From contig JAKAJD010000001.1 in assembly GCA_021813945.1 (NCBI GenBank), positions 206,115-270,114 on the forward strand: 64,000 nucleotides of DNA, read 5' to 3'. The position numbers were made by a program, and so were the translations under genes. Below, in pieces: positions 13,529-53,755 of the stretch. This DNA is from a bacterium. Its GTDB lineage: Bacteria; Patescibacteriota; Microgenomatia; Curtissbacterales; GWA2-41-24. A model generated the notes under the pieces. It searched no databases. It worked only from the letters and a program-made list of their open reading frames with translations, and had not been told where the DNA came from. The stretch's first letter is position 1; the number at the start of each line of letters is the position of its first letter.

Positions 13529-16500
13529 ATGTCTAAATTCGTCCATCTTCACGTACACAGTGAATATTCTCTCTTAGACGGTCTTTCTAAAATTCCCAAA
13601 ATGGTAACTCAAGCAAAAATTTTGGGGATGCAGCATTTAGCAATAACAGACCACGGCGCAATGTACGGAGCGGTGAAATTTTATAAGGAATGCAAAAGCC
13701 AAGGTTTAAATCCCATCTTAGGTTGTGAGATGTATATTGCGAAAAGAAGTCTCAAAGATAAGGAAGCCGGCAAGGATAACGATTATCATCACCTAACCGT
13801 TTTAGCAAAAGATAGGGAAGGCTATGTCAACTTGATGAAGCTTGTGACAATAGCCCAGCTAGAAGGGTTTTATTATCGCCCAAGAATCGACAAATCAACT
13901 CTTGCCAAACATGCAAAAGGTCTTATGGCACTTTCTGGTTGTAACTCATCGGAGATTTCCAAGGAATTCATATCCAGAGATCTAAAAGCTGCCAGAAAGC
14001 TAGTCGAAGAGTATCAAGCTATCTTCGGTAAAGACGATTTTTACTTGGAAGTTCAAAGGCACGAATTTTCCAAATTTCAAGCTGCTCACGACAAAGGCTC
14101 CTATATCTACAACGAATTAGAAAGAATGCATCAGGAAGAACAAAAAATCATCGAAGGGGCCAAAAAATTATCAAAGGAAATGAGGCTTTCGCTAATAGCC
14201 ACAAATGACATCCATTACGTTATGCCACAAGATGCAAGCGCACAAGACGCCATTGTCTGCATTCAAACCGGCAAAAATATTCAGGACGAAAAACGCCTCA
14301 GAATGATAGACTCCCCTACTTTTTTTCTAAAAAGTGACGAAGAAATGAGAGAACTTTTTCCGGATATCCCAGAATCGATAGATAACACGGTAAAACTTGC
14401 AGAAAAAGTCAAAATTGATTTGACATTAGGAAAAGTTGCCTTTCCAAAGTATCAAGTTCCAAACCAAAAGTCCGCAGAAGATTATCTTAGGGATCTTTGC
14501 TTCGATAGAATTAAATCAAAAGTAGAAAAAGTAACTCCGGAGATTAAAGAGCGGTTAGATTATGAACTGTCCGTCATTTCCAAAAAAGGCTACTCGGCTT
14601 ATTTTTTAGTTGTGTCGGATTTTGTCAATTGGTCTCGCGAAAAAGGAATTATCTCAACAACTCGGGGGTCTGCATCCGGAAGCCTTGTTTCGTACGCTCT
14701 GGGAATAACGACTGTCAACCCGCTTTCATTTAAGCTGCCATTTGAAAGATTTTTAAATCTTTACAGACCGACATTACCAGATATTGACGTAGATTTTGAA
14801 GACAAAAGGCGCGACGAAGTGATCCAATATGTGCGCGAAAAGTACGGCCATGAAAAGGTCGCGCAAATTGGCACTTTCGGAACAATGATGGCCAGAGCAG
14901 CTGTTCGCGATGTCGCCCGCGTCTTAGGTTGGCCTTATTCAAAAGCCGATCGTATTGCCAAAATGATTCCCTTCGGAGCTCAAGGATTTCCTATGTCACT
15001 CGATCTGGCCAAAAAACAAAATAGAGATCTTGGAAATTTATACAACGATGATTCTGAAGTTAAAGAGCTTTTGGATTTAGCGGAAAAAGTAGAAGGCAAT
15101 GCCAGGCACGTTTCAGTCCATGCGGCGGGTGTCGTGATAGGTCCGGACGATCTATCCAATTACACACCACTTCAAAAAGAAACCACCGGAGAAAAAATCA
15201 TAACTCAGTACGATATGCATGATGTTGAAGATGTAGGTCTTGTAAAAATGGATTTTTTGGGAATCAGAAACCTTTCTATTCTGGGTCAGGCAGTGAAAAT
15301 TGTGCAATCGGAAAAGAATATCAAAATCAACCTCACAGATATTCCGCTTGACGACAAAAAAGCCTTTGATCTTCTTGCAAAAGGTGAAACGATGGGCCTT
15401 TTCCAGCTAGGCGGATCGGGAATGACGAGGTATTTAAAAGAACTTCGACCGACAACGGTCTTTGACATTATGGCGATGATTTCGCTTTTTCGCCCGGGAC
15501 CGATGAATTCAATCCCGGAATTTATCGAAAGGAAAAACGATCCGAAAAAAGTTAAATATTTCGACCCAAGAATGAAAGATTACCTGGATTTGTCTTATGG
15601 CGTCATAGTTTACCAAGACGATGTTCTTTTAACTGCTATCAACATTGCGGGATATACGTGGGAAGAGGCAGATAATTTCCGAAAGGCAATGGGTAAAAAA
15701 ATTCCGGCAGAAATGAGCAAGCAGCGCGAAAAATTCCTAGACGGAGCTATAAAAAACGGAATGACCGGAGAAAAATCGGAAGAGCTTTTTAAACTTATCG
15801 AGCCATTCGCGGCTTATGGTTTCAACAAAGCTCATGCCGCATCGTATGCAATTATTGCCTACCAAACTGCCTACATGAAAGCCAATTACCCGGTTGAGTT
15901 TATGACAGCTGTAATGACCGCTGAAGCCGACGATACGGACAAAATCGCCTCGGCTGTAGATGAGTGTGCCAAAATGGGTATCCTCGTTCTTCCGCCGGAC
16001 ATTAACGCATCGCACACAGGTTTCACTATTGAAAAAGTGCAAAAAACGAAAAAAGACGGTATCCGATTTGGGTTTTCCGCCATAAAAAACGTAGGTAAAG
16101 CCGCAATCGAGGCCATCATATCCGAACGTGAAGCACACGGACTTTTTAAATCTTTAGACAACTTTGTATCAAGAGTTAATTTAAGAGCAGTGAACAGGAA
16201 GACTTTAGAGAGTTTAATTAAAGCAGGCGCTATGGACGGTTTCGGGAAACGAAATGCCATGCTTAAAATTCTAGACGATATCAAAGCGCAAGGCACATCT
16301 CTTTCTAAAACCATAGCCGAAGGCCAGGGTACATTATTTGGTGAAGAAGAGCTGGATTCCAAAACCGTTATACCCAAATCAATGAGCTCTCTTTTAGAAT
16401 CAACCGAAGAGGCACCGAAGGAAGAAATACTTTCCTGGGAACGAGAGCTTTTAGGCTTTTATTTAACCGAACATCCGCTTGCAAATGTCTCAGAAAGAAT

Positions 16501-17041
16501 AGACAGAATTGCAACTGTTAAAATTGGCGAAATTGACCGTTTTACCTATGCCAACAAAACCATTAAACTCGGAGGAATAATCGCTTCTTTAAGAAAAACT
16601 GTTACCAAACTAAAGCAACAGGAAATGTGCTTTTTAAAGCTGCAGGACACAACAGGGACAATCGAGGTTATTGTATTTCCAAAAATTTACCAAATTGCCA
16701 GGGATATTATCGCCATGGATCAAATCGTCATCGTATCCGGTAAACTGGAAGCAGACGACGAAAGTTCAACCCTTATAGCAGACAGCATAACTCTACTTGA
16801 AAAGGAGCCGGAAACCGCAAGTATTGAAGAAATAAACATCTCTATCCCGAAAAATGCCGACAGGATTCTGCTTTCCAAAATTTATGAGGTTTTAAAAGAA
16901 AATTCTGGCAAAAGCCCTACTTTTCTAATCCTTCCCGGTCAGGATAGTGCAGTCCGCAAAATCCCTGTTCCTTTCGGCGTAGAAAGAAGTTTTAATCTAG
17001 AAGACAGTCTCTCAAATCTTGGTTGCCGCATTACAGGTTAA
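13529..17041 (+). CDS. dnaE: DNA polymerase III alpha subunit
   Basis: N-terminal PHP (FVHLHVHSEYSLLDG), a polymerase core and C-terminal OB region. 1170 aa. Confidence 0.95.
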   Translation: MSKFVHLHVHSEYSLLDGLSKIPKMVTQAKILGMQHLAITDHGAMYGAVKFYKECKSQGLNPILGCEMYIAKRSLKDKEAGKDNDYHHLTVLAKDREGYVNLMKLVTIAQLEGFYYRPRIDKSTLAKHAKGLMALSGCNSSEISKEFISRDLKAARKLVEEYQAIFGKDDFYLEVQRHEFSKFQAAHDKGSYIYNELERMHQEEQKIIEGAKKLSKEMRLSLIATNDIHYVMPQDASAQDAIVCIQTGKNIQDEKRLRMIDSPTFFLKSDEEMRELFPDIPESIDNTVKLAEKVKIDLTLGKVAFPKYQVPNQKSAEDYLRDLCFDRIKSKVEKVTPEIKERLDYELSVISKKGYSAYFLVVSDFVNWSREKGIISTTRGSASGSLVSYALGITTVNPLSFKLPFERFLNLYRPTLPDIDVDFEDKRRDEVIQYVREKYGHEKVAQIGTFGTMMARAAVRDVARVLGWPYSKADRIAKMIPFGAQGFPMSLDLAKKQNRDLGNLYNDDSEVKELLDLAEKVEGNARHVSVHAAGVVIGPDDLSNYTPLQKETTGEKIITQYDMHDVEDVGLVKMDFLGIRNLSILGQAVKIVQSEKNIKINLTDIPLDDKKAFDLLAKGETMGLFQLGGSGMTRYLKELRPTTVFDIMAMISLFRPGPMNSIPEFIERKNDPKKVKYFDPRMKDYLDLSYGVIVYQDDVLLTAINIAGYTWEEADNFRKAMGKKIPAEMSKQREKFLDGAIKNGMTGEKSEELFKLIEPFAAYGFNKAHAASYAIIAYQTAYMKANYPVEFMTAVMTAEADDTDKIASAVDECAKMGILVLPPDINASHTGFTIEKVQKTKKDGIRFGFSAIKNVGKAAIEAIISEREAHGLFKSLDNFVSRVNLRAVNRKTLESLIKAGAMDGFGKRNAMLKILDDIKAQGTSLSKTIAEGQGTLFGEEELDSKTVIPKSMSSLLESTEEAPKEEILSWERELLGFYLTEHPLANVSERIDRIATVKIGEIDRFTYANKTIKLGGIIASLRKTVTKLKQQEMCFLKLQDTTGTIEVIVFPKIYQIARDIIAMDQIVIVSGKLEADDESSTLIADSITLLEKEPETASIEEINISIPKNADRILLSKIYEVLKENSGKSPTFLILPGQDSAVRKIPVPFGVERSFNLEDSLSNLGCRITG

Positions 17042-31985: not shown

Positions 31986-33266
31986 TCACGCCTTTTTCAA
32001 GAAATTTATCCTGTAGCTTTTGTCTCCAAAATAACCGGTCACTTCCGGCATTACAATTGGCATCCCCAAAAGCTGTCCAGGGAAAACAGTATAATGGCCA
32101 AAACGGCTGTTTATCCTATCAACCGACGATACTAGTCTTACACGCCTTCTCTCTTCATCAAAAAGCGGTACAGGTTGGTGTCTGCTCGCTGTAAGCATTC
32201 CAAGCGTAACTCCGCAAAAAATTATGTTTTTAGGTTGCCACTCGTCAGCAATCTGCTTACAAACCCTAAAAAGGTCTTGGCCTGTATTGATGTAACTTGC
32301 CAAGGTTTTGTGTCCATACCAGGATTTAGCCTCAGCATCGCTTTTTAAGTTCCCAGACCATTGCCTTGGCGAGGTTCTAAGACAAAACCCTACGTAACGC
32401 CCACAAAGCCTCATTGCACGGGCTTTTTCGGCGGCTTCCTCGCATAAATTTCGAGTAACTTTATAAATCTCAGATCTGCTTTCTAAAATCCTGTGTGCGG
32501 TATAAGTTCTGCCGACCGATTTGGCGTCTGGAATAGAATCAAGCCCAACTAAAGGACTGTTATCGATCCCTCTGGCAACATTATAAAGGTGTAAAGACCA
32601 ATAAGGCCCAAAATGTTTATATAAAAAGGGGAGTGATTGTTTTCGCAATTTGGCAAAATCATTTATCCCCAGGCTCGTTAAATGGCTATAAAGGCCCCAG
32701 CCGAGTCCGCAAATCTCCATCAATTTGGATTTGTCCAAAACCTCAAGCATATTATCGTGTGTAATCCAAAAAAGGCCATCAGGCTTGATTTGTTCAGAGG
32801 CAAGCTTAGCCAAAAGCTTATTGTGGGAAATTCCAACAGAACAAGTTAAATAATCACCAACTTCTCGCAGTCTCTTTTTAATATCAAATGCAATATTAAA
32901 AGCATTACCCCAGAACTTTTCAGTTTCAGTTACATCTATAAAACATTCATCCAGTGAAAAAACTTCGCAAAGCGGCGAATAACTTGAACAGATATCAATA
33001 AATTTCCGGCTTATATATTCGTATTTTGAAAAATCCGCAGGTACGAGAATAATTTCGGGGCAAAGTTTTCTAGCGTCATATGTTCTTGAACCTGTTCCAA
33101 CGCCTTTACGTTTGGCTTCAACAGAGGCCGCGATAATACAGCTTCTACCACGGGCTTTAACAACGCCAACAGGCTTCCCCCGGAGCGCAGGATTAGCTTG
33201 CTGTTCGGCCGTTGCAAAAAAGCTGTTTAAATCCGCATGGATGATAACTCGCTTGTCATTTTGCAT
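31986..33266 (-). CDS. dinB: DNA polymerase IV (Y-family translesion polymerase, DinB/UmuC-like)
   Basis: VIIHADLNSFFATAEQ...SCIIAASVEAKRKGV is the Y-family palm. 426 aa. Confidence 0.9.
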   Translation of the reverse strand: MQNDKRVIIHADLNSFFATAEQQANPALRGKPVGVVKARGRSCIIAASVEAKRKGVGTGSRTYDARKLCPEIILVPADFSKYEYISRKFIDICSSYSPLCEVFSLDECFIDVTETEKFWGNAFNIAFDIKKRLREVGDYLTCSVGISHNKLLAKLASEQIKPDGLFWITHDNMLEVLDKSKLMEICGLGWGLYSHLTSLGINDFAKLRKQSLPFLYKHFGPYWSLHLYNVARGIDNSPLVGLDSIPDAKSVGRTYTAHRILESRSEIYKVTRNLCEEAAEKARAMRLCGRYVGFCLRTSPRQWSGNLKSDAEAKSWYGHKTLASYINTGQDLFRVCKQIADEWQPKNIIFCGVTLGMLTASRHQPVPLFDEERRRVRLVSSVDRINSRFGHYTVFPGQLLGMPIVMPEVTGYFGDKSYRINFLKKA

Positions 33267-33276
33267 TTAAAAACGA

Positions 33277-33603
33277 TTAAACTTTCTCTGTCACCTTTTT
33301 GACCTTCCATATATAATTATTTGCATTGTATTCGAGTTCAAAATTTGCAGTATCCGAAGCGCAAACCAAATCGACCATCCGTGAATCACCAACTCGCCTA
33401 GAAGAGGAAAAAATTACCTTATCAAACTTTACAAAGCGCCGGTTCCAATTCATTGCAATAGGGAAAATTCCTTGATCAAAAAAAGCCCAAACTTTTACCT
33501 TATCATCAACCTCAGTATCCATAATCTCTTTATACCCAAATAAAACCCGAAAATCAAGTGGCAATTTAGCTAGATCTGTAGTATTCTCTAAATCCTTAGC
33601 CAA
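33277..33603 (-). CDS. hypothetical protein (108 aa), first gene of the dinB operon
   Basis: ORF only. 10-nt spacing to dinB. Lies 8 nt from the divergent rhomboid gene. Confidence 0.45.
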   Translation of the reverse strand: MAKDLENTTDLAKLPLDFRVLFGYKEIMDTEVDDKVKVWAFFDQGIFPIAMNWNRRFVKFDKVIFSSSRRVGDSRMVDLVCASDTANFELEYNANNYIWKVKKVTEKV

Positions 33604-45722: not shown

Positions 45723-47078
45723 ATGAGCTTGCCTCAATTCCCGGATGAGGTTTTAAGAGTTTCAAAACGCGTTGCCGCATTTCCAAAGGAATCTAAAAGA
45801 AAAGGCTTTAGTCGTTTTCTTCGAATACTTGGCCCAGGTATTGTTACGGGCGCTGCCGATGACGACCCCTCAGGTATAGCAACTTACTCTCAAGCTGGTG
45901 CACAGTTTGGCTTCAACATGCCCTGGACCATGCTTTTTACCTTTCCACTCATGACAGCAGTCCAAGAAGCATGCGCAAGGGTTGGGGCCGTAACAGGCAA
46001 GGGCTTAGCCGCTTCTGTTAGAGATCATTATTCAAAAAAAGTACTTTATCCCGTTGTAGCTCTGGTAGTAACTGCAAACACGTTTAACATCGGATCAGAT
46101 ATAGGTGCTATGGCCGCGAGTACTAGGTTGCTTCTCCCCAATATACCTTTTGCTCTTTTAGCAGTTGCATTTGCAACAATTATTTTGATCTTAGAAATAA
46201 TGGTTTCCTACAGAACCTATATGCATATCTTAAAATGGTTAGCTATGGCTTTGTTTGCATATTTTATAACGGCATTCATGGTTCAAGTACCCTGGACTGA
46301 TGTACTAAAGGCAACACTTGTGCCACATATAGAATTGAACAAAGAATTTCTATATATAATCGTTGGAATTTTCGGAACAACTATTTCCCCTTACCTGTTT
46401 TTTTGGCAGACAAGTAACGTTGTAGAAGACGAAATAGCAGAACATCGCTTGGCAGAAAACACAGAAGGCACTCCCCGTATTTCAAAACCCTATATTCAAC
46501 GTTTGAGAATCGATACCGCTGTAGGAATGCTGTTTTCTAATGTGAGTGCCTGGTTTATCATCGTTGTAGGTGCGGTAGTTTTAAACAGTGCAGGAGTAAC
46601 AGATATAAAAACCGCAGCGGATGCGGCAAGAGCACTTGAGCCACTAGTCAAAAGCTTCCCCAATGCTGGTTTTCTTGCCAAGTTGATTTTTTCCATTGGT
46701 GTAATTGGCATCGGCCTCCAAAGCATACCCGTATTAGCAGGGTCATCTTCTTATGCAGTCTCTGAAACATTCAACTGGCGTGAAGGATTGTTTAGAAAAT
46801 TCAAACAGGCGCGTGAATTCTATTTTGTAATAATTTTTGGAACACTGGTCGGTCTCATATTTAATTTTATTGGCTTCGATCCTATGAAAGCACTTGTGCT
46901 AACGGCTGTTTTTAACGGTATTGCTGCTGTACCTCTTATTTTCCTAATCGCCAAGGTTTCAGGAAGGGAAGACATAATGGGAGAACACAAAAGCGGAGTT
47001 TGGTCTAAACTTGGTCTTTGGATATCTTTTGTGGTAATGGGAGTTTTCTCAGCCGCCTTACTTGTTTCTTTTCTCTAA
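45723..47078 (+). CDS. mntH: NRAMP family divalent metal (Mn2+/Fe2+) transporter
   Basis: LGPGIVTGAADDDPSGIATYSQAGAQFGF metal-binding motif. 11-12 TM helices. Confidence 0.85.
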   Translation: MSLPQFPDEVLRVSKRVAAFPKESKRKGFSRFLRILGPGIVTGAADDDPSGIATYSQAGAQFGFNMPWTMLFTFPLMTAVQEACARVGAVTGKGLAASVRDHYSKKVLYPVVALVVTANTFNIGSDIGAMAASTRLLLPNIPFALLAVAFATIILILEIMVSYRTYMHILKWLAMALFAYFITAFMVQVPWTDVLKATLVPHIELNKEFLYIIVGIFGTTISPYLFFWQTSNVVEDEIAEHRLAENTEGTPRISKPYIQRLRIDTAVGMLFSNVSAWFIIVVGAVVLNSAGVTDIKTAADAARALEPLVKSFPNAGFLAKLIFSIGVIGIGLQSIPVLAGSSSYAVSETFNWREGLFRKFKQAREFYFVIIFGTLVGLIFNFIGFDPMKALVLTAVFNGIAAVPLIFLIAKVSGREDIMGEHKSGVWSKLGLWISFVVMGVFSAALLVSFL

Positions 47079-47096
47079 AACGAAATGAGCTCGTAC

Positions 47097-47717
47097 TTAA
47101 TTCTGGTACTTTCTAATAACTGCAACACACTTACCCTGTATCGTTACATTTTTGGCAAATATTGGCTGCATAGTAGTATTTGAAGGCTGCAACCTAACTC
47201 TATCCTTTTCCTTAAAGAAACGTTTTAAAGTCACAACCCCGTTTTCTATCATCGCGACGACAATGTCCCCGTTATTCGCGTGGTTTGTCTCCTCAATAAC
47301 TACAAAGTCTCCATCCAAAATTCCGTCATCCACCATAGATTCTCCCTTAACTTGCAAAACATAAGATTTTTTGTTTGCGGAAACCATATTTGCGGAAACT
47401 GCAAAAGTTGCATTAGGGTCGGTATAAGGTTCGATTGGAGAACCAGCAGCAATGAAACCCGAAAGAGGCAACTCAATGCCCTTAACAATTTTTCCGATTT
47501 TTTGGTCTATCAGCTCTATGCTTCTGGACACTCCACCGGATTTTTTGATCAAACCCTTTTTCTCTAGCGTCTGTAAATGCTCATGGACTGTAGCAAGCGA
47601 TTTAACCCCAAGTTTTTTAGCAATCTCAACTAAAGTCGGCGCATGTCCGTACTTTTCAATATAGTCGTTAAGATAATCTAAAATTTGTTTTTGCCTTTTG
47701 TATAAAACTAAACTCAT
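47097..47717 (-). CDS. lexA: LexA repressor (S24 peptidase)
   Basis: N-terminal wHTH (LTKRQKQIL...GHAPTLVEIAKKLGVKS) and C-terminal KGESMVDDGILDGDFVVIEE...VTLKR (Ser/Lys dyad). ATG at 47717 (MSLVLYK...). Confidence 0.9.
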   Translation of the reverse strand: MSLVLYKRQKQILDYLNDYIEKYGHAPTLVEIAKKLGVKSLATVHEHLQTLEKKGLIKKSGGVSRSIELIDQKIGKIVKGIELPLSGFIAAGSPIEPYTDPNATFAVSANMVSANKKSYVLQVKGESMVDDGILDGDFVVIEETNHANNGDIVVAMIENGVVTLKRFFKEKDRVRLQPSNTTMQPIFAKNVTIQGKCVAVIRKYQN

Positions 47718-47740
47718 GTTATGATATATATATACCAAAT

Positions 47741-47759
47741 AAAACCCGAAATTGTCAAG
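47741..47759. promoter_or_regulatory. 19-bp element AAAACCCGAAATTGTCAAG, copy 1 (contains TTGACA on the lexA strand)
   Basis: Exact duplicate of 47797-47815. Lies in the lexA/uvrB divergent promoter region. Confidence 0.45.
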
Positions 47760-47796
47760 GGCCCAATTTATTGTTTTGAGCCGCTAAACCGGTCTA

Positions 47797-47815
47797 AAAA
47801 CCCGAAATTGTCAAG
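47797..47815. promoter_or_regulatory. 19-bp element AAAACCCGAAATTGTCAAG, copy 2
   Basis: Exact duplicate of 47741-47759. A TATAAT for uvrB lies at 47839-47844. Confidence 0.45.
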
Positions 47816-47855
47816 AATCAAATCTGGCGGATTTAATATATAATGTACGATTGAT

Positions 47856-49850
47856 ATGAAATTTGATCTAAAAGCAACATATAAACCAACCGGTGACCAG
47901 CCTCTAGCAATTGAGAAACTAGTTGATGGCCTAAGTAATAACTATCAACACCAAACGCTGCTTGGCGTAACTGGTTCCGGAAAAACTTTCACAGTTGCCA
48001 ATGTTATCCAAAAAATCCAAAAGCCAACGTTGGTTATCAGTCACAACAAGACGCTGGCAGCCCAACTCTACCAGGAATTCCGCGAATTCTTCCCAAACAA
48101 TGCGGTATGCTATTTCGTCTCTTATTACGACTATTACCAGCCCGAAGCCTATCTTCCCGCAACAGATACATATATAGAGAAAGAAACCGAGGTAAACGAG
48201 GAGATAGACAGGCTCAGGCTAGCAGCAACTACGGCACTTTCAACCAGAAACGACGTTATCGTAGTAGCTTCCGTCTCCGCAATCTACAATCTTGGGTCAC
48301 CTGAAGAATATAAAAACGCCCGCGTCGATCTAAAAGTCGGCCAGGCGTGGTCAAGACTCGACCTTCTCACAAATTTTGCCAGGCTTCAATATGAACGAAA
48401 CGATACGGATTTTGCCAGGGGAACCTACCGCGTCCGCGGCGAAAACGTAGAAATAATCCCTGCTTACGAAAATAATGGTTTAAGGCTCGCTTTCTCAAAC
48501 GATACAATCCGAAAAATAGAAACTATCCACCCCGTGACCGGGAAAATCATCAAGTCTCATGAAGCTTATGCCCTCTATCCGGCAAAGCATTATGTAACAG
48601 CTGATCCAACAAACGAAAACGTCATCTCCTCAATAAAAGACGAACTAAAAGCCCAGCTTAAATTCCTGGAATCAAAAGGGAAAGTTTTAGAAGCGCATCG
48701 CCTCAAACAACGTACGAACTACGATTTGGAAATGATAAAAACGCTGGGTTATTGCAAAGGTATCGAAAATTACTCCCGCTACTTTGACGGCAGAAAACCG
48801 GGCGAGGCACCATTTTCCCTAATTGAGCATTTTCCTAAAGATTATCTTTTAGTAATCGACGAGTCGCATATGACTATTCCTCAAATCCAGGGAATGTATA
48901 ACGGCGACCATGCCAGAAAAACCATGTTGGTTGATTTCGGCTTTCGGCTTCCGTCTGCATTCGACAACCGGCCGCTTAAGTTTGAAGAGTTTGCTCGCAG
49001 AATAAATCAGGCAATTTACACGTCGGCTACTCCGGCCCAATATGAAATATCCATATCAAACCAGGTAGTCGAGCAACTTATTCGTCCTACGGGATTAATA
49101 GATCCCCAAATATCTGTCCGCAAAACAGAAGGCCAGATAGAAGATCTAATAACAGAAATTGAAAAAAGAGTACAAAAACACCAACGGGTACTGGTCACCA
49201 CTCTCACAAAACGTATGGCCGAAGAACTTTCAAAATATCTCGAGGAAAAGAAAATTCGCGTAACCTACCTTCACAGCGAAATAGAAACACTAGACAGAAC
49301 GGATATTTTAGACGATCTTAGGCTTGGGAATTACGACGTTTTAGTTGGCATCAACCTTCTGCGCGAAGGTTTGGATCTTCCCGAAGTTACCCTCGTTGCC
49401 ATTCTAGACGCAGATAAAGAAGGTTTTCTCCGGTCGGAAACGTCACTTATCCAAACAATGGGCAGGGCTGCACGCCACGTAGACGGATCTGTAATTCTAT
49501 ATGCAGATACAGTCACCAAATCAATGGATAGAGCAATAAAAGAGGTCACAAGAAGAAGAAAAATCCAGATGGACTATAACGCCAAACACAACATCAAGCC
49601 CCGTTCAATCGAAAAACCTATCCGCGGAAAGCTAGTTGAGCGTCAAAAAGAAGAAGATAAAAAGCTAATCTACAGGGACACAGTAATAGCCAGTGTTATG
49701 GAAAGGGCCAAAGAAGGATCAATTTTACCTGAAGACAAAACAAAACTTATAAAATTTCTAAATCGCGAAATGAAATCAGCGGCCCGCGTCCTCGATTTCG
49801 AAAAAGCGGCGTATCTGCGTGATCAAATCATAGAACTCAAAACAAATTAG
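47856..49850 (+). CDS. uvrB: excinuclease ABC subunit B
   Basis: GVTGSGKTF Walker A, beta-hairpin and helicase motifs, and a C-terminal UVR domain (...AAYLRDQIIELK). Confidence 0.95.
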   Translation: MKFDLKATYKPTGDQPLAIEKLVDGLSNNYQHQTLLGVTGSGKTFTVANVIQKIQKPTLVISHNKTLAAQLYQEFREFFPNNAVCYFVSYYDYYQPEAYLPATDTYIEKETEVNEEIDRLRLAATTALSTRNDVIVVASVSAIYNLGSPEEYKNARVDLKVGQAWSRLDLLTNFARLQYERNDTDFARGTYRVRGENVEIIPAYENNGLRLAFSNDTIRKIETIHPVTGKIIKSHEAYALYPAKHYVTADPTNENVISSIKDELKAQLKFLESKGKVLEAHRLKQRTNYDLEMIKTLGYCKGIENYSRYFDGRKPGEAPFSLIEHFPKDYLLVIDESHMTIPQIQGMYNGDHARKTMLVDFGFRLPSAFDNRPLKFEEFARRINQAIYTSATPAQYEISISNQVVEQLIRPTGLIDPQISVRKTEGQIEDLITEIEKRVQKHQRVLVTTLTKRMAEELSKYLEEKKIRVTYLHSEIETLDRTDILDDLRLGNYDVLVGINLLREGLDLPEVTLVAILDADKEGFLRSETSLIQTMGRAARHVDGSVILYADTVTKSMDRAIKEVTRRRKIQMDYNAKHNIKPRSIEKPIRGKLVERQKEEDKKLIYRDTVIASVMERAKEGSILPEDKTKLIKFLNREMKSAARVLDFEKAAYLRDQIIELKTN

Positions 49851-49884: not shown

Positions 49885-50712
49885 ATGCTGGAACGCTACG
49901 GCATAGAGTATAGCCCCGACGGCAAGCTTCAAAAGCTAGACGCCCAAAGAGCTTTTGAAGTTGTCAGAGAAGATATTAGTGGGCTCTTTCAAATCCAAAC
50001 ACATGGGGCGGTTGTTGAATTCACAAGTCCGGAGGGATACGCACAAAGACTCAGAGACTTACTTGCAGCAAGAAACATAACAGATCAAGCCGATATTGAC
50101 GCAACTGTTAAAAGAATTGGGGAAGCAACAGAGATAGGTGGTGTAACAGCCTACTGTGGAGATCTTGACTTAGCATTAGAATGGAGGCCCAGGTATATTA
50201 TCTTTTTAAGTAATGCGTCAAAAATAACACACTTACCAGCAATACTAGCAGAGGAAGTAACACACGGTGAACACGAAGCCTATATGATTGATGATGTGGG
50301 GATGTCGTACGCCGATTACCAAACATCTTTTCACGCAATCTCAAAAGAATTTTTGGGTTATCTTGGAAGAAAAAGGGTCATTGAGATTATCGGTCTGGAA
50401 GGCAGATATGGAACAACACTTGACGCATCAAGAGACTTAACGGAGAACGAGTGGTCACACTTTATTGGTTACTGGATTGCAGACGACCTCTTAGATAAAG
50501 GCAAAAAGTTACCTTATAGAGAACTTTTCCACGCAACAAGCGAAGAAGAAATGTGGCATATTTTAAAAACAGCAATGGGAGATGATTTCAACTTTACCTT
50601 AAATTTTGCGGAGAATTTAAATTACGAGAAACTACAAGAAGCGCTAAATTCTATAATAAGGAGAAATAAAGCGGCCGATTATATAAAGCTCAACTTCAGG
50701 CAGATAAATTAA
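49885..50712 (+). CDS. hypothetical protein (275 aa) inserted between uvrB and uvrA
   Basis: ORF with good coding texture. No TM helices. Contains ...ITHLPAILAEEVTHGEHEAYMIDD... No recognisable family. Confidence 0.5.
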   Translation: MLERYGIEYSPDGKLQKLDAQRAFEVVREDISGLFQIQTHGAVVEFTSPEGYAQRLRDLLAARNITDQADIDATVKRIGEATEIGGVTAYCGDLDLALEWRPRYIIFLSNASKITHLPAILAEEVTHGEHEAYMIDDVGMSYADYQTSFHAISKEFLGYLGRKRVIEIIGLEGRYGTTLDASRDLTENEWSHFIGYWIADDLLDKGKKLPYRELFHATSEEEMWHILKTAMGDDFNFTLNFAENLNYEKLQEALNSIIRRNKAADYIKLNFRQIN

Positions 50713-50869
50713 CCGGAAAATCAATTTCTATGTCAGGTTTAATCACTTGAACAAATCTTGCCAAAGGTGATAAAATTTTCCCTCAGTGTACTAATCTTGT
50801 TTCGGTAAATATTCGGGTTTACACTGAAAAGCATCGACGAAGTGTTGCCTTATAAATTGAAATGTTCAT

Positions 50870-53755
50870 ATGGACAAAATAATCATAAAAGGTGCAAGGG
50901 AAAACAACCTTAAAAATTTAAGCGTTGAAATCCCAAAAAATAAGCTGATTGTCTTCACCGGCATTTCCGGTTCAGGTAAATCATCTTTGGCTTTCGACAC
51001 AATCTACGCAGAAGGCCAACGCCGTTACGTCGAATCGTTAGCCTCGTACGCTCGTCAGTTTCTTGGTGTGATGGACAAACCCGACGTTGACTCAATTGAA
51101 GGCCTTTCCCCAGCAATCTCGATCGATCAAAAATCAACTTCCCATAACCCTCGTTCAACTGTAGGTACAGTCACGGAAATTTACGACTACCTTAGACTTT
51201 TATTCGCAAGAGTTGGTCATCCACATTGCCCGATTTGCGGGCGTGAAATTGCCCATCAGTCTGCAGCACAAATAGTCGACGAAATTCAAAAATTACCACA
51301 ACAGACAGGTTCTAAAAACTTTAAAATCTTGCTTCTTTCTCCTGTTGTCAAAGACCGCAAAGGAGAATTCACACAACTTTTCAGGGATCTTTTGAAAAAG
51401 GGCTACCGCGAAGCCAGAATCGACGGTCAAATTAGAGAAATCGATGAAGATTTTACCCTCATCAAAACTAACAAACATACAATAGAAGTAGTTATGGATA
51501 GGCTGATAATCCCTGCGGAAAAGCAGCGCCTTTCTCAGTCAGTCGAGCAAGCGCTGAAGTTATCAGAAGGATCCCTTATAGCCTCTGAGATCCTAGATAA
51601 AAGCTTCGAAATTCAGAAATATCCCAAAGAGTTAAAGGACCATCTTTTTTCCGAAAAATTCACTTGTCCTGTAGATAACATTTCTTTGCCAGAAATAGAA
51701 CCTAGATCATTTTCTTTTAATTCACCTCATGGCGCCTGTCCAAAATGTAATGGCTTAGGGGCAATTAAGAAAGTCGATCCTAAATTGGTCATCAATCCAA
51801 ACCTAACCATAGCAGAAGGCGCAATACTTCCTTGGGCAAGGATAGTTGGAAGCGATTCATGGTCCTGGAGGGTGTTAGAAACAGTCTGCAAAGAAAACAA
51901 CATAAACATAAACATCCCTTTCCGTGACCTAAATCAAAGCGCTCGAGAGCAAATCTTAAACGGTACAGGCGATAAGCTTTATCGAATCAAGGGCCCAAAC
52001 AGGTTTGGCAAAATCGTGACTTGGGATAGCAATTTTGAAGGCGTAACAGAAAACATTGAGAATAAATATTCCCAGACAGAATCAGATTTCGTCAGGCGCG
52101 AAATTGAACGTTTTATGAGGCAAGAAGAATGTGAAACTTGCGTGGGAACCAGGCTCAAGCCGGAAGCACTTTCGGTGACAATCGAGAAAAGATCGATAGC
52201 TGACATCTCGCTCCTGAGCATACAGGATTTCTTTGCTTGGTTAGAAAAACTCCAAAAGAACGAAACAAATATTCTGTCAGAACGAGAAGCCCTGATTGCC
52301 AAACCTATCTTAAAAGAGCTGATAGCTCGAACAAAGTTTCTTGTCGACGTAGGTTTAGATTACCTAACAATTGCCAGGTCGGCTGTAACCTTGGCCGGTG
52401 GGGAAGCACAACGCATTCGTCTGGCGTCACAAATTGGATCTGGTCTTTCAGGCGTTTTATATGTTTTGGACGAGCCCTCAATTGGCCTTCACCAAAGAGA
52501 CAATCAACGCCTTATATCAACATTAAAAAAACTTCGCGATTTGGAAAACACGGTTATTGTAGTCGAACACGATAGCGAAATGATGTTTGCATCCGATGAA
52601 ATTTTGGATTTCGGACCTGGTGCGGGCGAACACGGGGGGCAGATAATTTCTCAAGGTTCCCCTCAAGCGATAACTAAGGACACAAATTCTTTAACTGGAA
52701 AATATCTATCTGGCAAAAAGGAAATCAAGCTGCCTAAAAGACGCATTGTTTCCAAAAGCGGCTTAGCGCTAGATCTTATAGGTGCAAAAGAACACAACCT
52801 CAAAGATATAGACGTGACATTTCCCCTGGGAAATTTAATTTGTGTAACAGGTGTATCTGGATCTGGCAAGTCGACATTAATCCATGACGTTTTGTATAAC
52901 GCGATAGCTGCCGAACTATACACGTCAAAAGACAAACCAGGTGCTTATAAGTCACTAAGGGGCTTAGAAAATGTTGATAAAGTGATTCTTATAGATCAGT
53001 CACCAATTGGCAGGACACCACGCTCTAATCCTGCGACCTATACCGGTGCCTTTACGCATATTCGCGAACTGTTTTCTCAAACAACGGACGCTCGAATCCG
53101 CGGCTACAACCCCGGACGATTTTCTTTTAACGTCAAAGGTGGCCGCTGCGAAGCTTGCGAAGGTGAAGGCCAGGTAAAAATAGAAATGCAATTTCTTCCA
53201 GACGTTTATGTTGATTGTGAAGTATGCGGGGGCAAAAGGTATAACGAAGAAGCCCTAGAGGTTCATTACAAAGGGAAAAATATCTCAGAAGTTCTCCAAA
53301 TGACAGTGGAAACCGCTTTAGAGTTTTTCCAAAACATTCCGCAAATTAAACAAAAACTGGAAACAATAAACGATGTAGGTCTTTCTTATATCCATTTAGG
53401 CCAGCCTGCGCCAACACTCTCTGGCGGGGAGGCTCAACGGGTAAAACTGGCAACCGAGCTATCCAAAAAGGCAACAGGCAGAACTATTTATATTTTAGAC
53501 GAACCAACAACCGGGCTTCATTTTGCCGATATCGAGAGGCTGCTCAAGATTTTGGATAGATTAGTTTCAACAGGGAACACTGTTATAGTCATTGAACATA
53601 ACATGGATATAATTGCCAATGCAGATTGGATAATCGATTTAGGACCGGAAGGCGGAAACAATGGCGGCCAGGTAATTGCAGAGGCAACACCGCAAGATTT
53701 GGCTAAAATTCCTGCGTCTTATACAGGGCAATTTCTCAAAAAGTATCGCACTTGA
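50870..53755 (+). CDS. uvrA: excinuclease ABC subunit A
   Basis: Two ABC ATPase modules ([12 protein letters not shown] and [10 protein letters not shown]), LSGGEAQR signature motifs and Zn-finger Cys clusters. Confidence 0.95.

What the first reader, a model, noticed from the sequence alone, without database searches (positions are those of the whole stretch)
47739..47855. Exact 19-bp direct repeat in the divergent lexA/uvrB promoter region: candidate lineage-specific SOS operator
AAAACCCGAAATTGTCAAG occurs twice with no mismatch, at 47741-47759 and 47797-47815, 56 bp apart. The repeats sit between the divergently transcribed lexA (start 47717) and uvrB (start 47856). Neither the E. coli CTGT-N8-ACAG box nor the Gram-positive GAAC-N4-GTTC box is present in this region, so the operator of this LexA is not a known type. 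The repeat contains TTGACA on the lexA-coding strand, consistent with an operator overlapping a -35 element (autoregulation). The uvrB strand carries TATAAT at 47839-47844. A perfectly conserved 19-mer in non-coding DNA is unlikely by chance.
Basis: partly seen in the sequence, partly recalled or inferred. Interest (0 to 1): 0.6.

Follow-up and report, generated by a model that had tools for sequence, protein, structure and literature searches.

The report
Duplicated lexA promoter/half-operator module
The exact 19-bp repeat is real, but it is not itself a new kind of SOS operator. Each copy is the lexA promoter's -35 box joined to the first half of a direct-repeat LexA box (TTCGG-N6-TTYGG), a kind already reported for this bacterial group, and the upstream copy belongs to a conserved ~55-bp promoter module of unknown function whose copy number varies between relatives.

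Summary
Observation confirmed. AAAACCCGAAATTGTCAAG occurs exactly twice, at 47741-47759 and 47797-47815, between divergent lexA and uvrB, and the region is identical in two independent assemblies.

Interpretation partly right. About 50 distinct orthologous lexA promoters from Ca. Curtissbacteria and other Microgenomates show that the conserved element is a 16-nt direct repeat, TTCGGGTTTTATTTGG (47735-47750, minus strand), filling the -35/-10 spacer.

The 19-mer is TTGACA plus only the first 10 nt of that box. The core TTCGG-N6-TTYGG has 4 exact hits in the window against 0.42 expected. Three lie in sense inside the promoters of lexA, a small-ORF/Y-family polymerase operon (33536-33551) and uvrA (50801-50816). 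Both non-lexA sites are conserved in relatives.

A direct-repeat LexA motif was already reported for Patescibacteria in 2017, so "not a known type" is very probably wrong.

The distal copy lacks the second half-site and any -10, so it is not a full operator. It is the upstream arm of a conserved direct-inverted-direct (D-I-P) module. Among close relatives this module is present in 0, 1 or 2 units, and one genome has it at a polymerase promoter. The inverted arm covaries with the promoter arm.

The module's function is unresolved. Interest is modest.

The parts
47097..47717 (-). lexA coding sequence (206 aa)
   Evidence: Pfam LexA_DNA_bind 9e-19 and Peptidase_S24 7e-30. The translation shows the AAG cleavage motif (FIAAGSP), the catalytic Ser (GESM) and the Lys (TLKRF). 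Homologs at 80-94% identity are Ca. Curtissbacteria / Patescibacteria LexA.
47741..47759 (+). Proximal copy (P) of the 19-mer. In lexA sense it reads CTTGACAATTTCGGGTTTT, which is the -35 box, a 2-nt linker and the first 10 nt of the SOS box.
   Evidence: The alignment of about 20 orthologous promoters is.
47753..47758 (-). -35 hexamer TTGACA of the lexA promoter (inferred)
   Evidence: Read directly from the sequence. TTGAC is conserved at this position in all Microgenomates lexA promoters examined. The transcription start has not been mapped.
47735..47750 (-). SOS (LexA) box of lexA: TTCGGGTTTTATTTGG, a direct repeat TTCGG-N6-TTTGG that fills the 18-nt -35/-10 spacer
   Evidence: Conserved in all Curtissbacteria lexA promoters. 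PSSM score 27.5 bits. One of 4 exact matches to TTCGG-N6-TTYGG, against 0.42 expected.
47729..47734 (-). -10-like hexamer TATATA of the lexA promoter, 11 nt before the ATG (inferred; the mRNA is probably near-leaderless)
   Evidence: Sequence. Relatives have an equivalent TAnnAT at this position. The strict consensus scan did not call it, because position 6 is A.
47755..47763 (.). 9-nt segment between the I and P arms, containing most of the -35 box. It would be the loop of the I:P hairpin.
   Evidence: The gap is 8-9 nt in 12 of the 13 loci that have an I arm (6 nt in L061, whose arms are 1 nt shorter).
47764..47777 (-). Inverted arm (I): AAAACAATAAATTG in lexA sense, a degenerate inverted copy of the P/D arm CAATTTCGGGTTTT (11 of 14 complementary)
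   Evidence: the repeat finder pairs I1 and I3. The homologous arms in relatives are 12-13 of 14 complementary and covary with P.
47778..47796 (-). Inner segment of the module: TAGACCGGTTTAGCGGCTC in lexA sense, weakly self-complementary
   Evidence: Together with the I arm, about 30 of 37 positions match the corresponding stretch of L128 (my by-eye count).
47797..47815 (+). Distal copy (D) of the 19-mer: a -35-like TTGACA plus a half box, followed by TAGACC instead of ATTTGG. It has no second pentamer and no -10 at 16-18 nt.
   Evidence: PSSM score -4.0 bits. Homologous D arms occur in at least 11 other genomes.
47839..47844 (+). TATAAT, the -10-like element of uvrB, 11 nt before the uvrB ATG (inferred)
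   Evidence: An equivalent TATAAT lies 8-11 nt before uvrB in L001, L003 and L006.
47856..49850 (+). uvrB coding sequence. No complete SOS box lies in its promoter.
   Evidence: Pfam UvrB_inter, UvrB, UVR and Helicase_C. No box match on the + strand in 47756-47855.
33536..33551 (-). Second SOS box, TTCGGGTTTTATTTGG, within TTGATT-box-G-TATAAA-6 nt-ATG. This is the promoter of the small-ORF/Y-family polymerase operon.
   Evidence: The box is conserved at the orthologous promoters in L119, L120, L121 and L122.
31986..33522 (-). SOS-controlled operon: an 81-aa conserved ORF (33277-33522) followed by a Y-family (DinB/UmuC-type) polymerase (31986-33266)
   Evidence: Pfam IMS 1e-43 and IMS_C for the polymerase; no Pfam hit for the small ORF. 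The small ORF is conserved in L119, L120 and L122.
50801..50816 (+). Third SOS box, TTCGGTAAATATTCGG (a perfect TTCGG-N6-TTCGG), between a TTGTTT -35-like and a TACACT -10-like element, 54 nt upstream of uvrA (50870-53755)
   Evidence: Conserved directly upstream of uvrA in L001, L003, L006 and L057.

Best explanation
What the proximal copy is. In lexA sense it reads CTTGACA-AT-TTCGGGTTTT. That is the -35 hexamer of the autoregulated lexA promoter plus the first 11-bp unit of a two-unit direct-repeat LexA operator, TTCGGGTTTTA|TTTGG, at 47735-47750.

How the operator most likely works. It occupies the whole -35/-10 spacer, so a bound LexA dimer would block RNA polymerase. RecA-stimulated LexA self-cleavage would then derepress lexA, the small-ORF/Y-family polymerase operon (box at 33536-33551) and uvrA (box at 50801-50816). 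This is a Patescibacteria-type direct-repeat SOS box, not a new operator class.

What the distal copy is. It is the 5' arm (D) of an inherited module of about 55 bp: [-35-like hexamer + half box] - TAG - GC-rich palindromic inner segment - [inverted half box, I] - 8-9 nt holding the real -35 - [P]. Among close relatives the module is present in 0, 1 or 2 units. D has only one pentamer and no -10, so on its own it is neither a full operator nor a promoter.

Most likely role of D and I (inferred, low confidence). They act as auxiliary low-affinity LexA half-sites and/or as a hairpin-forming element that modulates the SOS promoter. In this genome the I arm has decayed, so only D's sequence is kept.

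Shown here: the sequence anatomy, the conservation, the regulon sites, the I:P covariation and the copy-number variation.

Inferred: LexA binding, the promoter elements and transcription start, and the role of D and I.
For: Operator:
- The box is conserved in the -35/-10 spacer of the lexA promoter in about 50 distinct Microgenomates loci. Variants move toward a perfect repeat, for example L005 TTCGGGttatcTTCGGGG and WWE3 TTCGtataataTTCGG.
- The window holds only two PSSM hits at 27.5 bits, at lexA and the Y-family polymerase operon; the next best scores 13.
- TTCGG-N6-TTYGG has 4 exact hits against 0.42 expected, and 0 of 100 shuffles reach 4. Three lie in sense inside promoters of SOS-type genes.
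- The uvrA box is conserved in 4 relatives. The polymerase-operon box is conserved in 4 relatives.
- Literature: Patescibacteria LexA recognises a direct repeat (PMC7739468, ref 52). LexA proteins from a Microgenomates and a Parcubacteria genome are listed as characterised in PMID 28618189 (PMC8565304, Suppl. Table S2).

Module:
- D arms followed by TAG...GCGCAAAAC and an I arm occur in at least 11 other genomes.
- L128, at 89% LexA identity, has two tandem units, and its inner segment is homologous to the window's. L001, at 94%, has none.
- rc(I) matches P at 11-13 of 14 positions, with a gap of 8-9 nt in 12 of the 13 loci that have an I arm, against 7 or fewer of 14 in the 25 without.
- RNAalifold picks I:P as the consensus structure.
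- I:P covariation score is 0.231 against 0.098 in shuffles, with 0 of 500 shuffles reaching it. The slid controls score 0.074 or less.
- In a permutation test at the variable dinucleotide, I and P match at 13 of 18 positions against a mean of 6.2, P about 0.0005.
- A module with locally matching arms is also present at a polymerase promoter, in L121.
Against: - No binding or expression data exist for this organism.
- I could not read the 2017 paper, so identity with the published consensus is unverified.
- The second pentamer TTTGG overlaps a possible extended -10 (TGn), which could explain part of its conservation. The TTCG(G/T) variants and the uvrA and L006-type boxes argue against that.
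- The covariation tests are inflated by relatedness, because several loci are close relatives. Template-switch "correction" of a quasi-palindrome could also produce I:P complementarity without selection.
- In the window itself the I:P fold is no better than shuffled sequence (z -0.8).
- The D-P spacing varies from 45 to 58 bp between genomes, which does not fit phased cooperative binding.
Confidence: 0.8

Rival explanations
1. First reader's model. Each 19-mer is a complete operator of a new type, so that LexA binds both copies. The proximal copy would autoregulate lexA and the distal copy would repress uvrB.
For: Two exact copies lie between the two divergent genes. The distal copy ends right next to the position expected for the uvrB -35, 23 nt from TATAAT. 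L001 and L064 have similar spacing.
Against: The 19-mer does not recur at any other SOS gene. What recurs at the polymerase operon and at uvrA is the 16-nt box, which the distal copy lacks; it scores -4 bits. The first 9 nt of the 19-mer are a -35 hexamer. In relatives, D lies about 55 to 70 nt from the uvrB -10, or uvrB is not the neighbour at all (L010, L007, L061, L067, L070), so D travels with lexA. Where uvrB does seem to have its own site, in L006, L057 and L059, it is a complete two-pentamer box.
Confidence: 0.07
2. The distal copy is a selectively neutral product of slippage or duplication, with no function in this genome. On this view it is a decaying remnant of the module.
For: The closest relative, L001, does well with one copy. 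L125, L126 and L127 are also single-copy. The window's I arm has lost its GC core (CACG to CAAT), and the hairpin is no better than shuffled sequence. Direct repeats of 19 bp make gain and loss easy.
Against: The unit predates the split between the window and L128 lineages, yet D is still 19 of 19 identical to P while the neighbouring intergenic DNA has diverged (about 65% identity to L001 in the flanks). D arms (TTGACA, TTCGG, GTTTT, TAG) are at least 90% conserved across 10 genomes whose inner segments are unalignable. The module also occurs at a different SOS promoter.
Confidence: 0.15
3. The module acts through nucleic-acid structure. The I:P hairpin, followed by TTTTATTT in lexA sense, would be an intrinsic, possibly bidirectional, terminator or insulator overlapping the promoter. 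D could compete for I as an anti-terminator, giving an attenuator-like 1:2 / 2:3 topology.
For: I:P covaries. Single-sequence folds have z from -2.9 to -6.0 in L010, L049, L058, L064, L069 and L070. In L069 the stem is 14 bp with a GC-rich base, followed by UUUUCUUU. Inner segments between D and I tend to be self-complementary with different sequences (my hand-computed Fisher combination gives about 0.015).
Against: Presence of the I arm does not track a co-directional upstream gene. In 6 of 12 loci with an I arm uvrB is the adjacent divergent neighbour, while L066, L077 and L012 have a co-directional gene and no hairpin. D:I shows no covariation (0.080 against 0.086). No promoter is evident that would transcribe across D-I-P. 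lexA mRNA probably starts downstream of P. In the window the structure is weak, and the terminator scan finds nothing in the intergenic region.
Confidence: 0.2
4. D-inner-I is a miniature palindromic element (MITE/REP-like) or a template-switch "direct-inverted-direct" triplication that arises repeatedly at SOS boxes. Its distribution would reflect mutational dynamics rather than regulation.
For: The arms look like terminal inverted repeats, TTCGGGTTTTTAGC / GCGCAAAACnCGAA, with inner segments of variable length (3-20 nt; 55 nt in the second L058 copy). The phylogenetic distribution is patchy and the copy number is 0, 1 or 2. The module is present at a polymerase promoter in a genome whose lexA promoter appears to lack it (L121 against L011). 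The TAGC/GCGC junctions are shared.
Against: The D and I arms track the local promoter variant (the spacing between the -35 and the box, and the variable dinucleotide), so they are copied locally rather than carried in. The exact half-box is not dispersed: the window has only 3 copies, all at SOS promoters. No transposase or target-site logic is known for a 40-bp element.
Confidence: 0.15

Closest known systems
Patescibacteria LexA-binding motif (Sanchez-Osuna, Barbe & Erill 2017, Environ Microbiol 19:3465, PMID 28618189)
   Same: Same superphylum. LexA from a Microgenomates genome (Ca. Collierbacteria) and from a Parcubacteria genome is listed as characterised in that paper (PMC8565304, Suppl. 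Table S2). The motif is described as a direct repeat (PMC7739468). The box found here is a direct repeat in the lexA promoter and upstream of a translesion polymerase and uvrA.
   Different: I could not read the paper, so I cannot confirm that its consensus equals TTCGG-N6-TTYGG. As far as I could check, the D-I-P module and its copy-number variation are not described in the accessible literature.
Alphaproteobacteria / Acidobacterium capsulatum direct-repeat SOS box GTTC-N7-GTTC
   Same: A head-to-tail repeat with an 11-bp period and a TTC core. It is a non-palindromic operator for an otherwise canonical LexA (the motif is listed in PMC8565304; the Acidobacterium reference is in PMC7739468).
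   Different: The pentamer here is TTCGG or TTTGG, and the base before TTC is usually T, C or A, not G. There is no exact GTTC-N7-GTTC anywhere in the window. The phylum is different.
Balneolaeota direct-repeat LexA motif TTACACATATTTTWTACATA (PMC7739468)
   Same: Another independently evolved direct-repeat LexA operator, also found by motif discovery on lexA promoters followed by regulon reconstruction.
   Different: The sequence is unrelated and the phylum is different.
Multiple SOS boxes at autoregulated or tightly repressed promoters, such as the two boxes at E. coli lexA and several at recN (my own background knowledge)
   Same: More than one LexA-type element sits in the lexA control region. 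L006, L057 and L059 do have two complete boxes.
   Different: In this window the extra copies are single half-boxes fused to a -35-like hexamer, plus an inverted half-box. They are not complete operators, and their spacing to the main box is not fixed.
Intrinsic (bidirectional) terminators and small palindromic repeat elements (REP/MITE-like)
   Same: An inverted repeat with an A-tract and a T-tract flanking the stem, and inner stems of variable length. The I:P stem is followed by a T-rich run in relatives.
   Different: The structure overlaps the -35 and the operator of a promoter. It does not correlate with upstream gene orientation, it is not dispersed in the genome, and in this window it is weak.

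Membership tests
LexA repressor (S24 self-cleaving, winged-helix DNA-binding) | N-terminal LexA DNA-binding domain plus C-terminal S24 peptidase domain | tested here: met
   PF01726 at 9e-19 (residues 5-65) and PF00717 at 7e-30 (residues 84-198).
LexA repressor (S24 self-cleaving, winged-helix DNA-binding) | Ala-Gly cleavage site and Ser/Lys catalytic dyad | tested here: met
   Read from the translation: FIAAGSP (cleavage site), KGESMVDDGI (Ser) and VVTLKRF (Lys). Alignment to E. coli LexA is from memory and was not computed.
SOS box (LexA operator) | Conserved in the lexA promoter of orthologs and overlapping core promoter elements | tested here: met
   TTCGGGTTTTnTT(T/C)GG lies in the -35/-10 spacer in all Curtissbacteria loci, with related forms in Blackburnbacteria, Shapirobacteria and WWE3.
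SOS box (LexA operator) | Recurs upstream of other DNA-damage genes in the same genome and in relatives | tested here: met
   Boxes at the Y-family polymerase operon (33536-33551) and at uvrA (50801-50816). There are 4 exact hits against 0.42 expected. Orthologous sites are conserved.
SOS box (LexA operator) | Specific binding by the cognate LexA, and derepression on DNA damage | not testable with these tools
   This needs EMSA or footprinting and expression data, and the organism is uncultured.
Patescibacteria direct-repeat LexA motif (PMID 28618189) | Direct-repeat (non-palindromic) architecture | tested here: met
   Two TTCGG-like pentamers 11 bp apart in the same orientation. The literature statement is in PMC7739468.
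Patescibacteria direct-repeat LexA motif (PMID 28618189) | Same consensus sequence as the published, EMSA-validated motif | not testable with these tools
   The paper is not held in the library, and the supplements of citing papers list only the protein accessions.
   There are only the two copies, even at 3 mismatches. The other SOS promoters share the 16-nt box, not the 19-mer.
Complete LexA operator, for the distal copy 47797-47815 | Two pentamers 11 bp apart | tested here: not met
   The distal site reads TTCGGGTTTTTAGACC. The second pentamer is absent and the PSSM score is -4.0 bits against 27.5.
Sigma-70-type promoter, for the distal copy | A -10 hexamer 16-18 nt downstream of the -35 | tested here: not met
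   The hexamers at 16, 17 and 18 nt are CCGGTT, CGGTTT and GGTTTA. The same is true of D arms in relatives. The promoter scan finds nothing.
Intrinsic terminator, for the I:P hairpin | A stable GC-containing stem followed by a U-tract | tested here: inconclusive
   Relatives meet it. L069 has a 14-bp stem at -19.4 kcal/mol, z -6.0, followed by UUUUCUUU. The window does not: -5.2 kcal/mol, z -0.8, and the terminator scan is negative in the intergenic region. Presence does not track upstream gene orientation.
Miniature mobile palindromic element (MITE/REP-like) | Many dispersed copies in the genome | tested here: not met
   The exact half-box occurs only 3 times in 64 kb, always at SOS promoters. 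D-type junctions in 122 loci occur only in lexA or polymerase upstream regions, plus one extra copy in L058. The whole genome was not scanned.

The most novel reading that the evidence does not exclude
The D-I-P unit is a previously undescribed cis-regulatory array attached to SOS promoters in Curtissbacteria (CPR bacteria), and its copy number varies. The array repeats a "-35 decoy plus LexA half-site", alternating with inverted half-sites that can pair with the promoter arm. It would tune LexA occupancy or promoter availability, either by recruiting extra LexA or RNA polymerase, or through a DNA/RNA hairpin that hides the -35 and half the operator. It would expand and contract by recombination between its 19-bp direct repeats, giving lineage-specific settings of the SOS threshold.
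Probability: 0.3. Interest if true: 0.55.

Novelty: new variant of a known kind. Interest (0 to 1): 0.35.

Why it matters
The practical result is a correction. The SOS operator of this genome is TTCGG-N6-TTYGG, and the minimal regulon visible in the window is lexA, a small-ORF/Y-family polymerase operon and uvrA. uvrB, the 49885 ORF and every other gene in the window lack a promoter-located box. This fits what is already reported for Patescibacteria, so it does not open a new operator class.

The part that may be new is the conserved, copy-number-variable direct-inverted-direct module built from the promoter's own -35 and half-operator. If it is functional, it would be an unusual way to tune autoregulation of a master stress regulator in reduced-genome, uncultured bacteria. 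It is also a clear example of promoter elements being duplicated and kept. If it only reflects template-switch or slippage mutation at a strongly constrained site, it is a minor curiosity.

Tried and rejected
- The 19-mer and its sub-motifs (AAAACNNNAAATTG, CGAAATTGTCAAG) were searched in the window. No enrichment was found beyond the locus itself.
- My first PSSM, built only from lexA promoters, was over-fitted to the GTTTT spacer and missed the uvrA box. I replaced it with a pentamer model.
- Rfam found nothing above noise on the intergenic region. Rfam and ARAGORN found nothing on relatives' upstream regions.
- The strict sigma-70 and terminator scan of 47600-47950 found no promoter call and no intergenic terminator.
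- D:I pairing was tested for covariation and none was found. Self-complementarity of the inner segment is only weakly supported.
- The idea that D serves uvrB was rejected. The D-to-uvrB spacing is not conserved, and uvrB is often not the neighbour.
- The idea that I:P terminates an upstream co-directional gene was rejected as a general explanation. Presence of the I arm does not correlate with upstream gene orientation.
- The idea of a recent de novo duplication in this genome was rejected. L128 has a homologous inner segment.
- An assembly artefact was ruled out.
- I tried to obtain the published Patescibacteria consensus by DOI, three literature searches and the supplements of PMC8565304. 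Only indirect statements were found.
- The fourth exact box hit (16404-16419) and all one-mismatch hits lie inside ORFs and were dismissed as chance.
Full report
OBSERVATION

The 19-mer AAAACCCGAAATTGTCAAG is present, without mismatch, at 47741-47759 and 47797-47815 on the + strand. No third copy exists in the 64-kb window even when 3 mismatches are allowed, where 0.08 are expected. The sequences flanking the two copies are unrelated, so the repeat is sharply bounded. The ORF at 47097-47717 (-) carries LexA_DNA_bind and Peptidase_S24 domains, and the ORF at 47856-49850 (+) is UvrB. TTGACA is on the minus strand of both copies and TATAAT is at 47839-47844. Neither CTGT-N8-ACAG nor GAAC-N4-GTTC occurs in the intergenic region. 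The same 138-bp intergenic sequence is found, 100% identical, in two other public assemblies from different samples, so it is not an assembly artefact.

ORGANISM AND COMPARATIVE MATERIAL

The LexA protein has thousands of homologs. The best named ones are from Candidatus Curtissbacteria and "Patescibacteria group" genomes, at about 80-94% identity. I fetched 45 loci from reference genomes and 73 from metagenomes, and a few more by exact-protein look-up. Sixty loci encode a LexA at 55% identity or better with an intact N-terminus. They give 47 distinct upstream regions, counting the window's own.

WHAT THE PROXIMAL COPY IS

Read in lexA sense, every Curtissbacteria lexA promoter has the form cTTGACA-nn-TTCGGGTTTT-n-TT(T/C)GG-TAnnAT, followed 6-11 nt later by the ATG. 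Related forms occur in Blackburnbacteria, Shapirobacteria and WWE3. The window's proximal 19-mer, CTTGACAATTTCGGGTTTT, is therefore three things joined together:
- the -35 hexamer (47753-47758);
- a 2-nt linker that varies between genomes;
- the first 10 nt of a conserved 16-nt element, TTCGGGTTTTATTTGG (47735-47750, minus strand), which fills the 18-nt spacer up to a TATATA -10-like hexamer (47729-47734).

The variants are informative. L005 reads TTCGGGttatcTTCGGGG, L006 and L019 read TTCGGGTTnTGTTCGT, and WWE3 reads TTCGtataataTTCGG. So the element is a head-to-tail repeat of a TTCGG-like pentamer with an 11-bp period.

THE ELEMENT BEHAVES AS THE SOS BOX

A PSSM built from the spacer element alone gives only two top hits in the window, both at 27.5 bits, with the next best at 13.1. 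One is the lexA promoter. The other is 33536-33551 (-), in cacTTGATT-TTCGGGTTTTATTTGG-G-TATAAA-gagatt-ATG. That promoter drives an 81-aa ORF followed by a Y-family (IMS/IMS_C) polymerase.

A PSSM hit upstream of uvrA in the closest relative, L001, led me to the window's uvrA leader. It holds TTCGGTAAATATTCGG at 50801-50816, a perfect TTCGG-N6-TTCGG that my first PSSM had missed because its spacer differs.

With the pentamer model TTCGG-N6-TTYGG the window has 4 exact hits against 0.42 expected, and 0 of 100 shuffles reach 4. Three are in sense orientation inside the -35/-10 spacer of lexA, the polymerase operon and uvrA. The fourth is antisense inside a 1170-aa ORF. All 13 one-mismatch hits are also inside ORFs.

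Both non-lexA sites are conserved in relatives:
- uvrA in L001, L003, L006 and L057;
- the polymerase operon in L119, L120, L121 and L122.

This is the standard comparative-genomics signature of a LexA operator. Binding itself is inferred. uvrB, the 49885 ORF and every other gene in the window lack a promoter-located box.

RELATION TO WHAT IS KNOWN

The open-access literature states that LexA has evolved direct-repeat recognition several times, and it cites Sanchez-Osuna, Barbe & Erill 2017 for the Patescibacteria (PMC7739468). Supplementary Table S2 of PMC8565304 lists LexA of Ca. Collierbacteria (Microgenomates) and of a Parcubacteria genome as characterised in that paper. The paper itself is not held, so I cannot confirm that its consensus equals TTCGG-N6-TTYGG. 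The architecture (direct repeat, 11-bp period, TTC core) also resembles the GTTC-N7-GTTC box of Alphaproteobacteria and Acidobacterium, but no exact GTTC-N7-GTTC exists in the window.

WHAT THE DISTAL COPY IS

In lexA sense it reads CTTGACAATTTCGGGTTTT-TAGACC. The second pentamer is missing, it scores -4.0 bits against 27.5, and there is no -10-like hexamer 16-18 nt downstream. On its own it is neither a complete operator nor a promoter. It is not a private accident of this genome either.

A distal arm (D) of the same kind is present in L007, L010, L049, L058, L061, L064, L067, L069, L070 and L072, among others. In each case D is followed by these parts, in order:
1. TAG;
2. a variable GC-rich segment of 3-20 nt;
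3. GCGCAAAAC-n-CGAA-nn-TG, which is an inverted copy (I) of the arm CAnnTTCGGGTTTT;
4. 8-9 nt that contain the real -35;
5. the proximal arm (P).

In the window, I is at 47764-47777 and is degenerate, with 11 of 14 positions complementary.

L128, whose LexA is 89% identical to the window's, has two such units in tandem before P. The inner segment of the unit next to P matches the window's at about 30 of 37 positions by my count. L001, at 94%, has none, and its single copy is flanked by the homologs of the window's D-left and P-right flanks. So the window's unit is inherited and L001 has lost it, most simply by deletion between the 19-bp direct repeats. Copy number varies 0, 1 and 2 among close relatives. 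On a LexA tree the module is dense in one large clade with sporadic absences, and scattered elsewhere. The polymerase promoter of L121 carries its own D-I-P module, with arms that match the local promoter variant. The lexA promoter that appears to come from the same genome (L011) has none. The module therefore goes with the SOS box, not with lexA or uvrB. uvrB is not even the upstream neighbour in about half of the module-bearing loci, and where it is, the D-to-uvrB spacing ranges from 23 to about 70 nt.

STRUCTURE TESTS

- Arm identity: rc(I) matches P at 11-13 of 14 positions, with an 8-9-nt gap in 12 of the 13 loci that have an I arm (6 nt in L061, whose arms are 1 nt shorter), against 7 or fewer of 14 in 25 Curtissbacteria loci without an I arm.
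- Variable dinucleotide: it is complementary between I and P at 13 of 18 positions, against a permutation mean of 6.2 (P about 0.0005). For I:D the count is only 7 of 16.
- Consensus fold: RNAalifold on 10 aligned modules picks the I:P hairpin.
- Covariation for I:P: the named-structure count gives 95% paired cells and a covariation score of 0.231 against 0.098 in shuffles (0 of 500 reach it). The slid controls score 0.074 or less.
- Covariation for D:I: there is none (0.080 against 0.086).
- Single-sequence folds: the I:P hairpin has z from -2.9 to -6.0 in six relatives. It is no better than shuffled sequence in the window (z -0.8), because the GC core of I has mutated from CACG to CAAT.

In lexA sense the hairpin is followed by TTTTATTT, which looks like a terminator. 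Its presence does not track a co-directional upstream gene, however. Relatedness of the sequences and template-switch homogenisation of quasi-palindromes are alternative sources of the covariation.

MECHANISM

Shown:
- the anatomy of the promoter and box;
- its conservation;
- its recurrence at three SOS-type operons;
- the inheritance, conservation and copy-number variation of the D-I unit;
- the I:P complementarity.

Inferred with good confidence: LexA binds the two-pentamer box in the -35/-10 spacer and occludes RNA polymerase at lexA, the polymerase operon and uvrA. The short distance from the -10 to the ATG (6-11 nt) at lexA and at the polymerase operon suggests leaderless mRNAs.

Inferred with low confidence: D and I act as auxiliary single half-sites for LexA and/or as a hairpin-forming element that modulates the promoter. 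A purely mutational origin with little function in this particular genome cannot be excluded.

VERDICT

The SOS box is a new member of a kind already described for Patescibacteria. The D-I-P module is, as far as I could check, an undescribed variant of multi-site SOS promoter architecture. Interest is modest, at 0.35.

Noticed in passing
window 33277-33522 (-): An 81-aa ORF (MDTEVDDKVKVWAFFDQGIFPIAMNWNRRFVKF...LVCASDTANFELEYN...) with no Pfam hit sits directly upstream of the Y-family polymerase and shares its SOS-box promoter. It is conserved in the same position in L119, L120 and L122. It may be a polymerase accessory factor, analogous in position to UmuD or YolD.
   Followed up: partly
window 49885-50712 (+): A 275-aa ORF without any Pfam hit lies between uvrB and uvrA. 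It is absent in the closest relative, L001, where uvrA follows uvrB after about 110 nt. It has its own TATAAT about 8 nt before the ATG and no SOS box.
   Followed up: partly
window 47078-47097: lexA and the Nramp-family transporter gene (45723-47078) converge with only 18 nt between their stop codons and no visible terminator. Read-through antisense to lexA therefore seems possible.
   Followed up: no
L121 1360-1460: The promoter of the Y-family polymerase in this Curtissbacteria genome carries its own direct-inverted-direct module, cTTGTAATTCGGGTTTTTAGC-CCGTCAATTTGTTGACT-GCGCAAAACCTGAAT-ggcgTTGATA-TTCGGGTTTTATTCGG. The lexA promoter that appears to come from the same genome (L011) has a single copy.
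   Followed up: partly
L128 200-400: Two tandem D-inner-I units precede the lexA promoter in the second-closest LexA homolog (89% identity). The 55-bp module therefore behaves like a copy-number-variable tandem repeat (0 units in L001, 1 in the window, 2 in L128).
   Followed up: yes
L006/L062 2939-2954; L057 2436-2451; L059 2438-2453: A different architecture in another Curtissbacteria subclade. A second complete box, TACGGGTTTT(A/G)TTTGG, lies about 35 bp upstream of the lexA box and abuts the predicted uvrB -35. In those genomes uvrB may be LexA-regulated.
   Followed up: partly
L058 1-290; L009 2770-2970 (also L068, L087): L058 has a second D'...I' pair (TTTTCGGGTTTTTAGCCCC ... GGAGCGCAAAACCTGAAA) enclosing a 55-nt AT-rich palindromic insert. 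Downstream is a conserved non-coding stretch of about 150 nt with strong hairpins, shared with L009. It has no Rfam or tRNA match.
   Followed up: partly
L004 2780-2860; L049 2415-2500; L014 2885-3000; L117 1830-1906: In several relatives a 70-110-nt AT-rich insert full of ATACA/GTAT-type short repeats separates the lexA promoter and box from the ATG. Most relatives are near-leaderless at this position.
   Followed up: no
L046/L047 around 630-700: An extra gene (MSERELFWQ...) with its own box, TACGGGTTTTGTTTGG, and a leaderless-type promoter is inserted between uvrB and lexA. It is a candidate additional SOS gene of unknown function.
   Followed up: no
window 16404-16419 (-): This is the fourth exact match to TTCGG-N6-TTYGG (TTCGGTGCCTCTTCGG). 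It lies antisense inside a 1170-aa ORF (13529-17041) and I judged it a chance match.
   Followed up: partly
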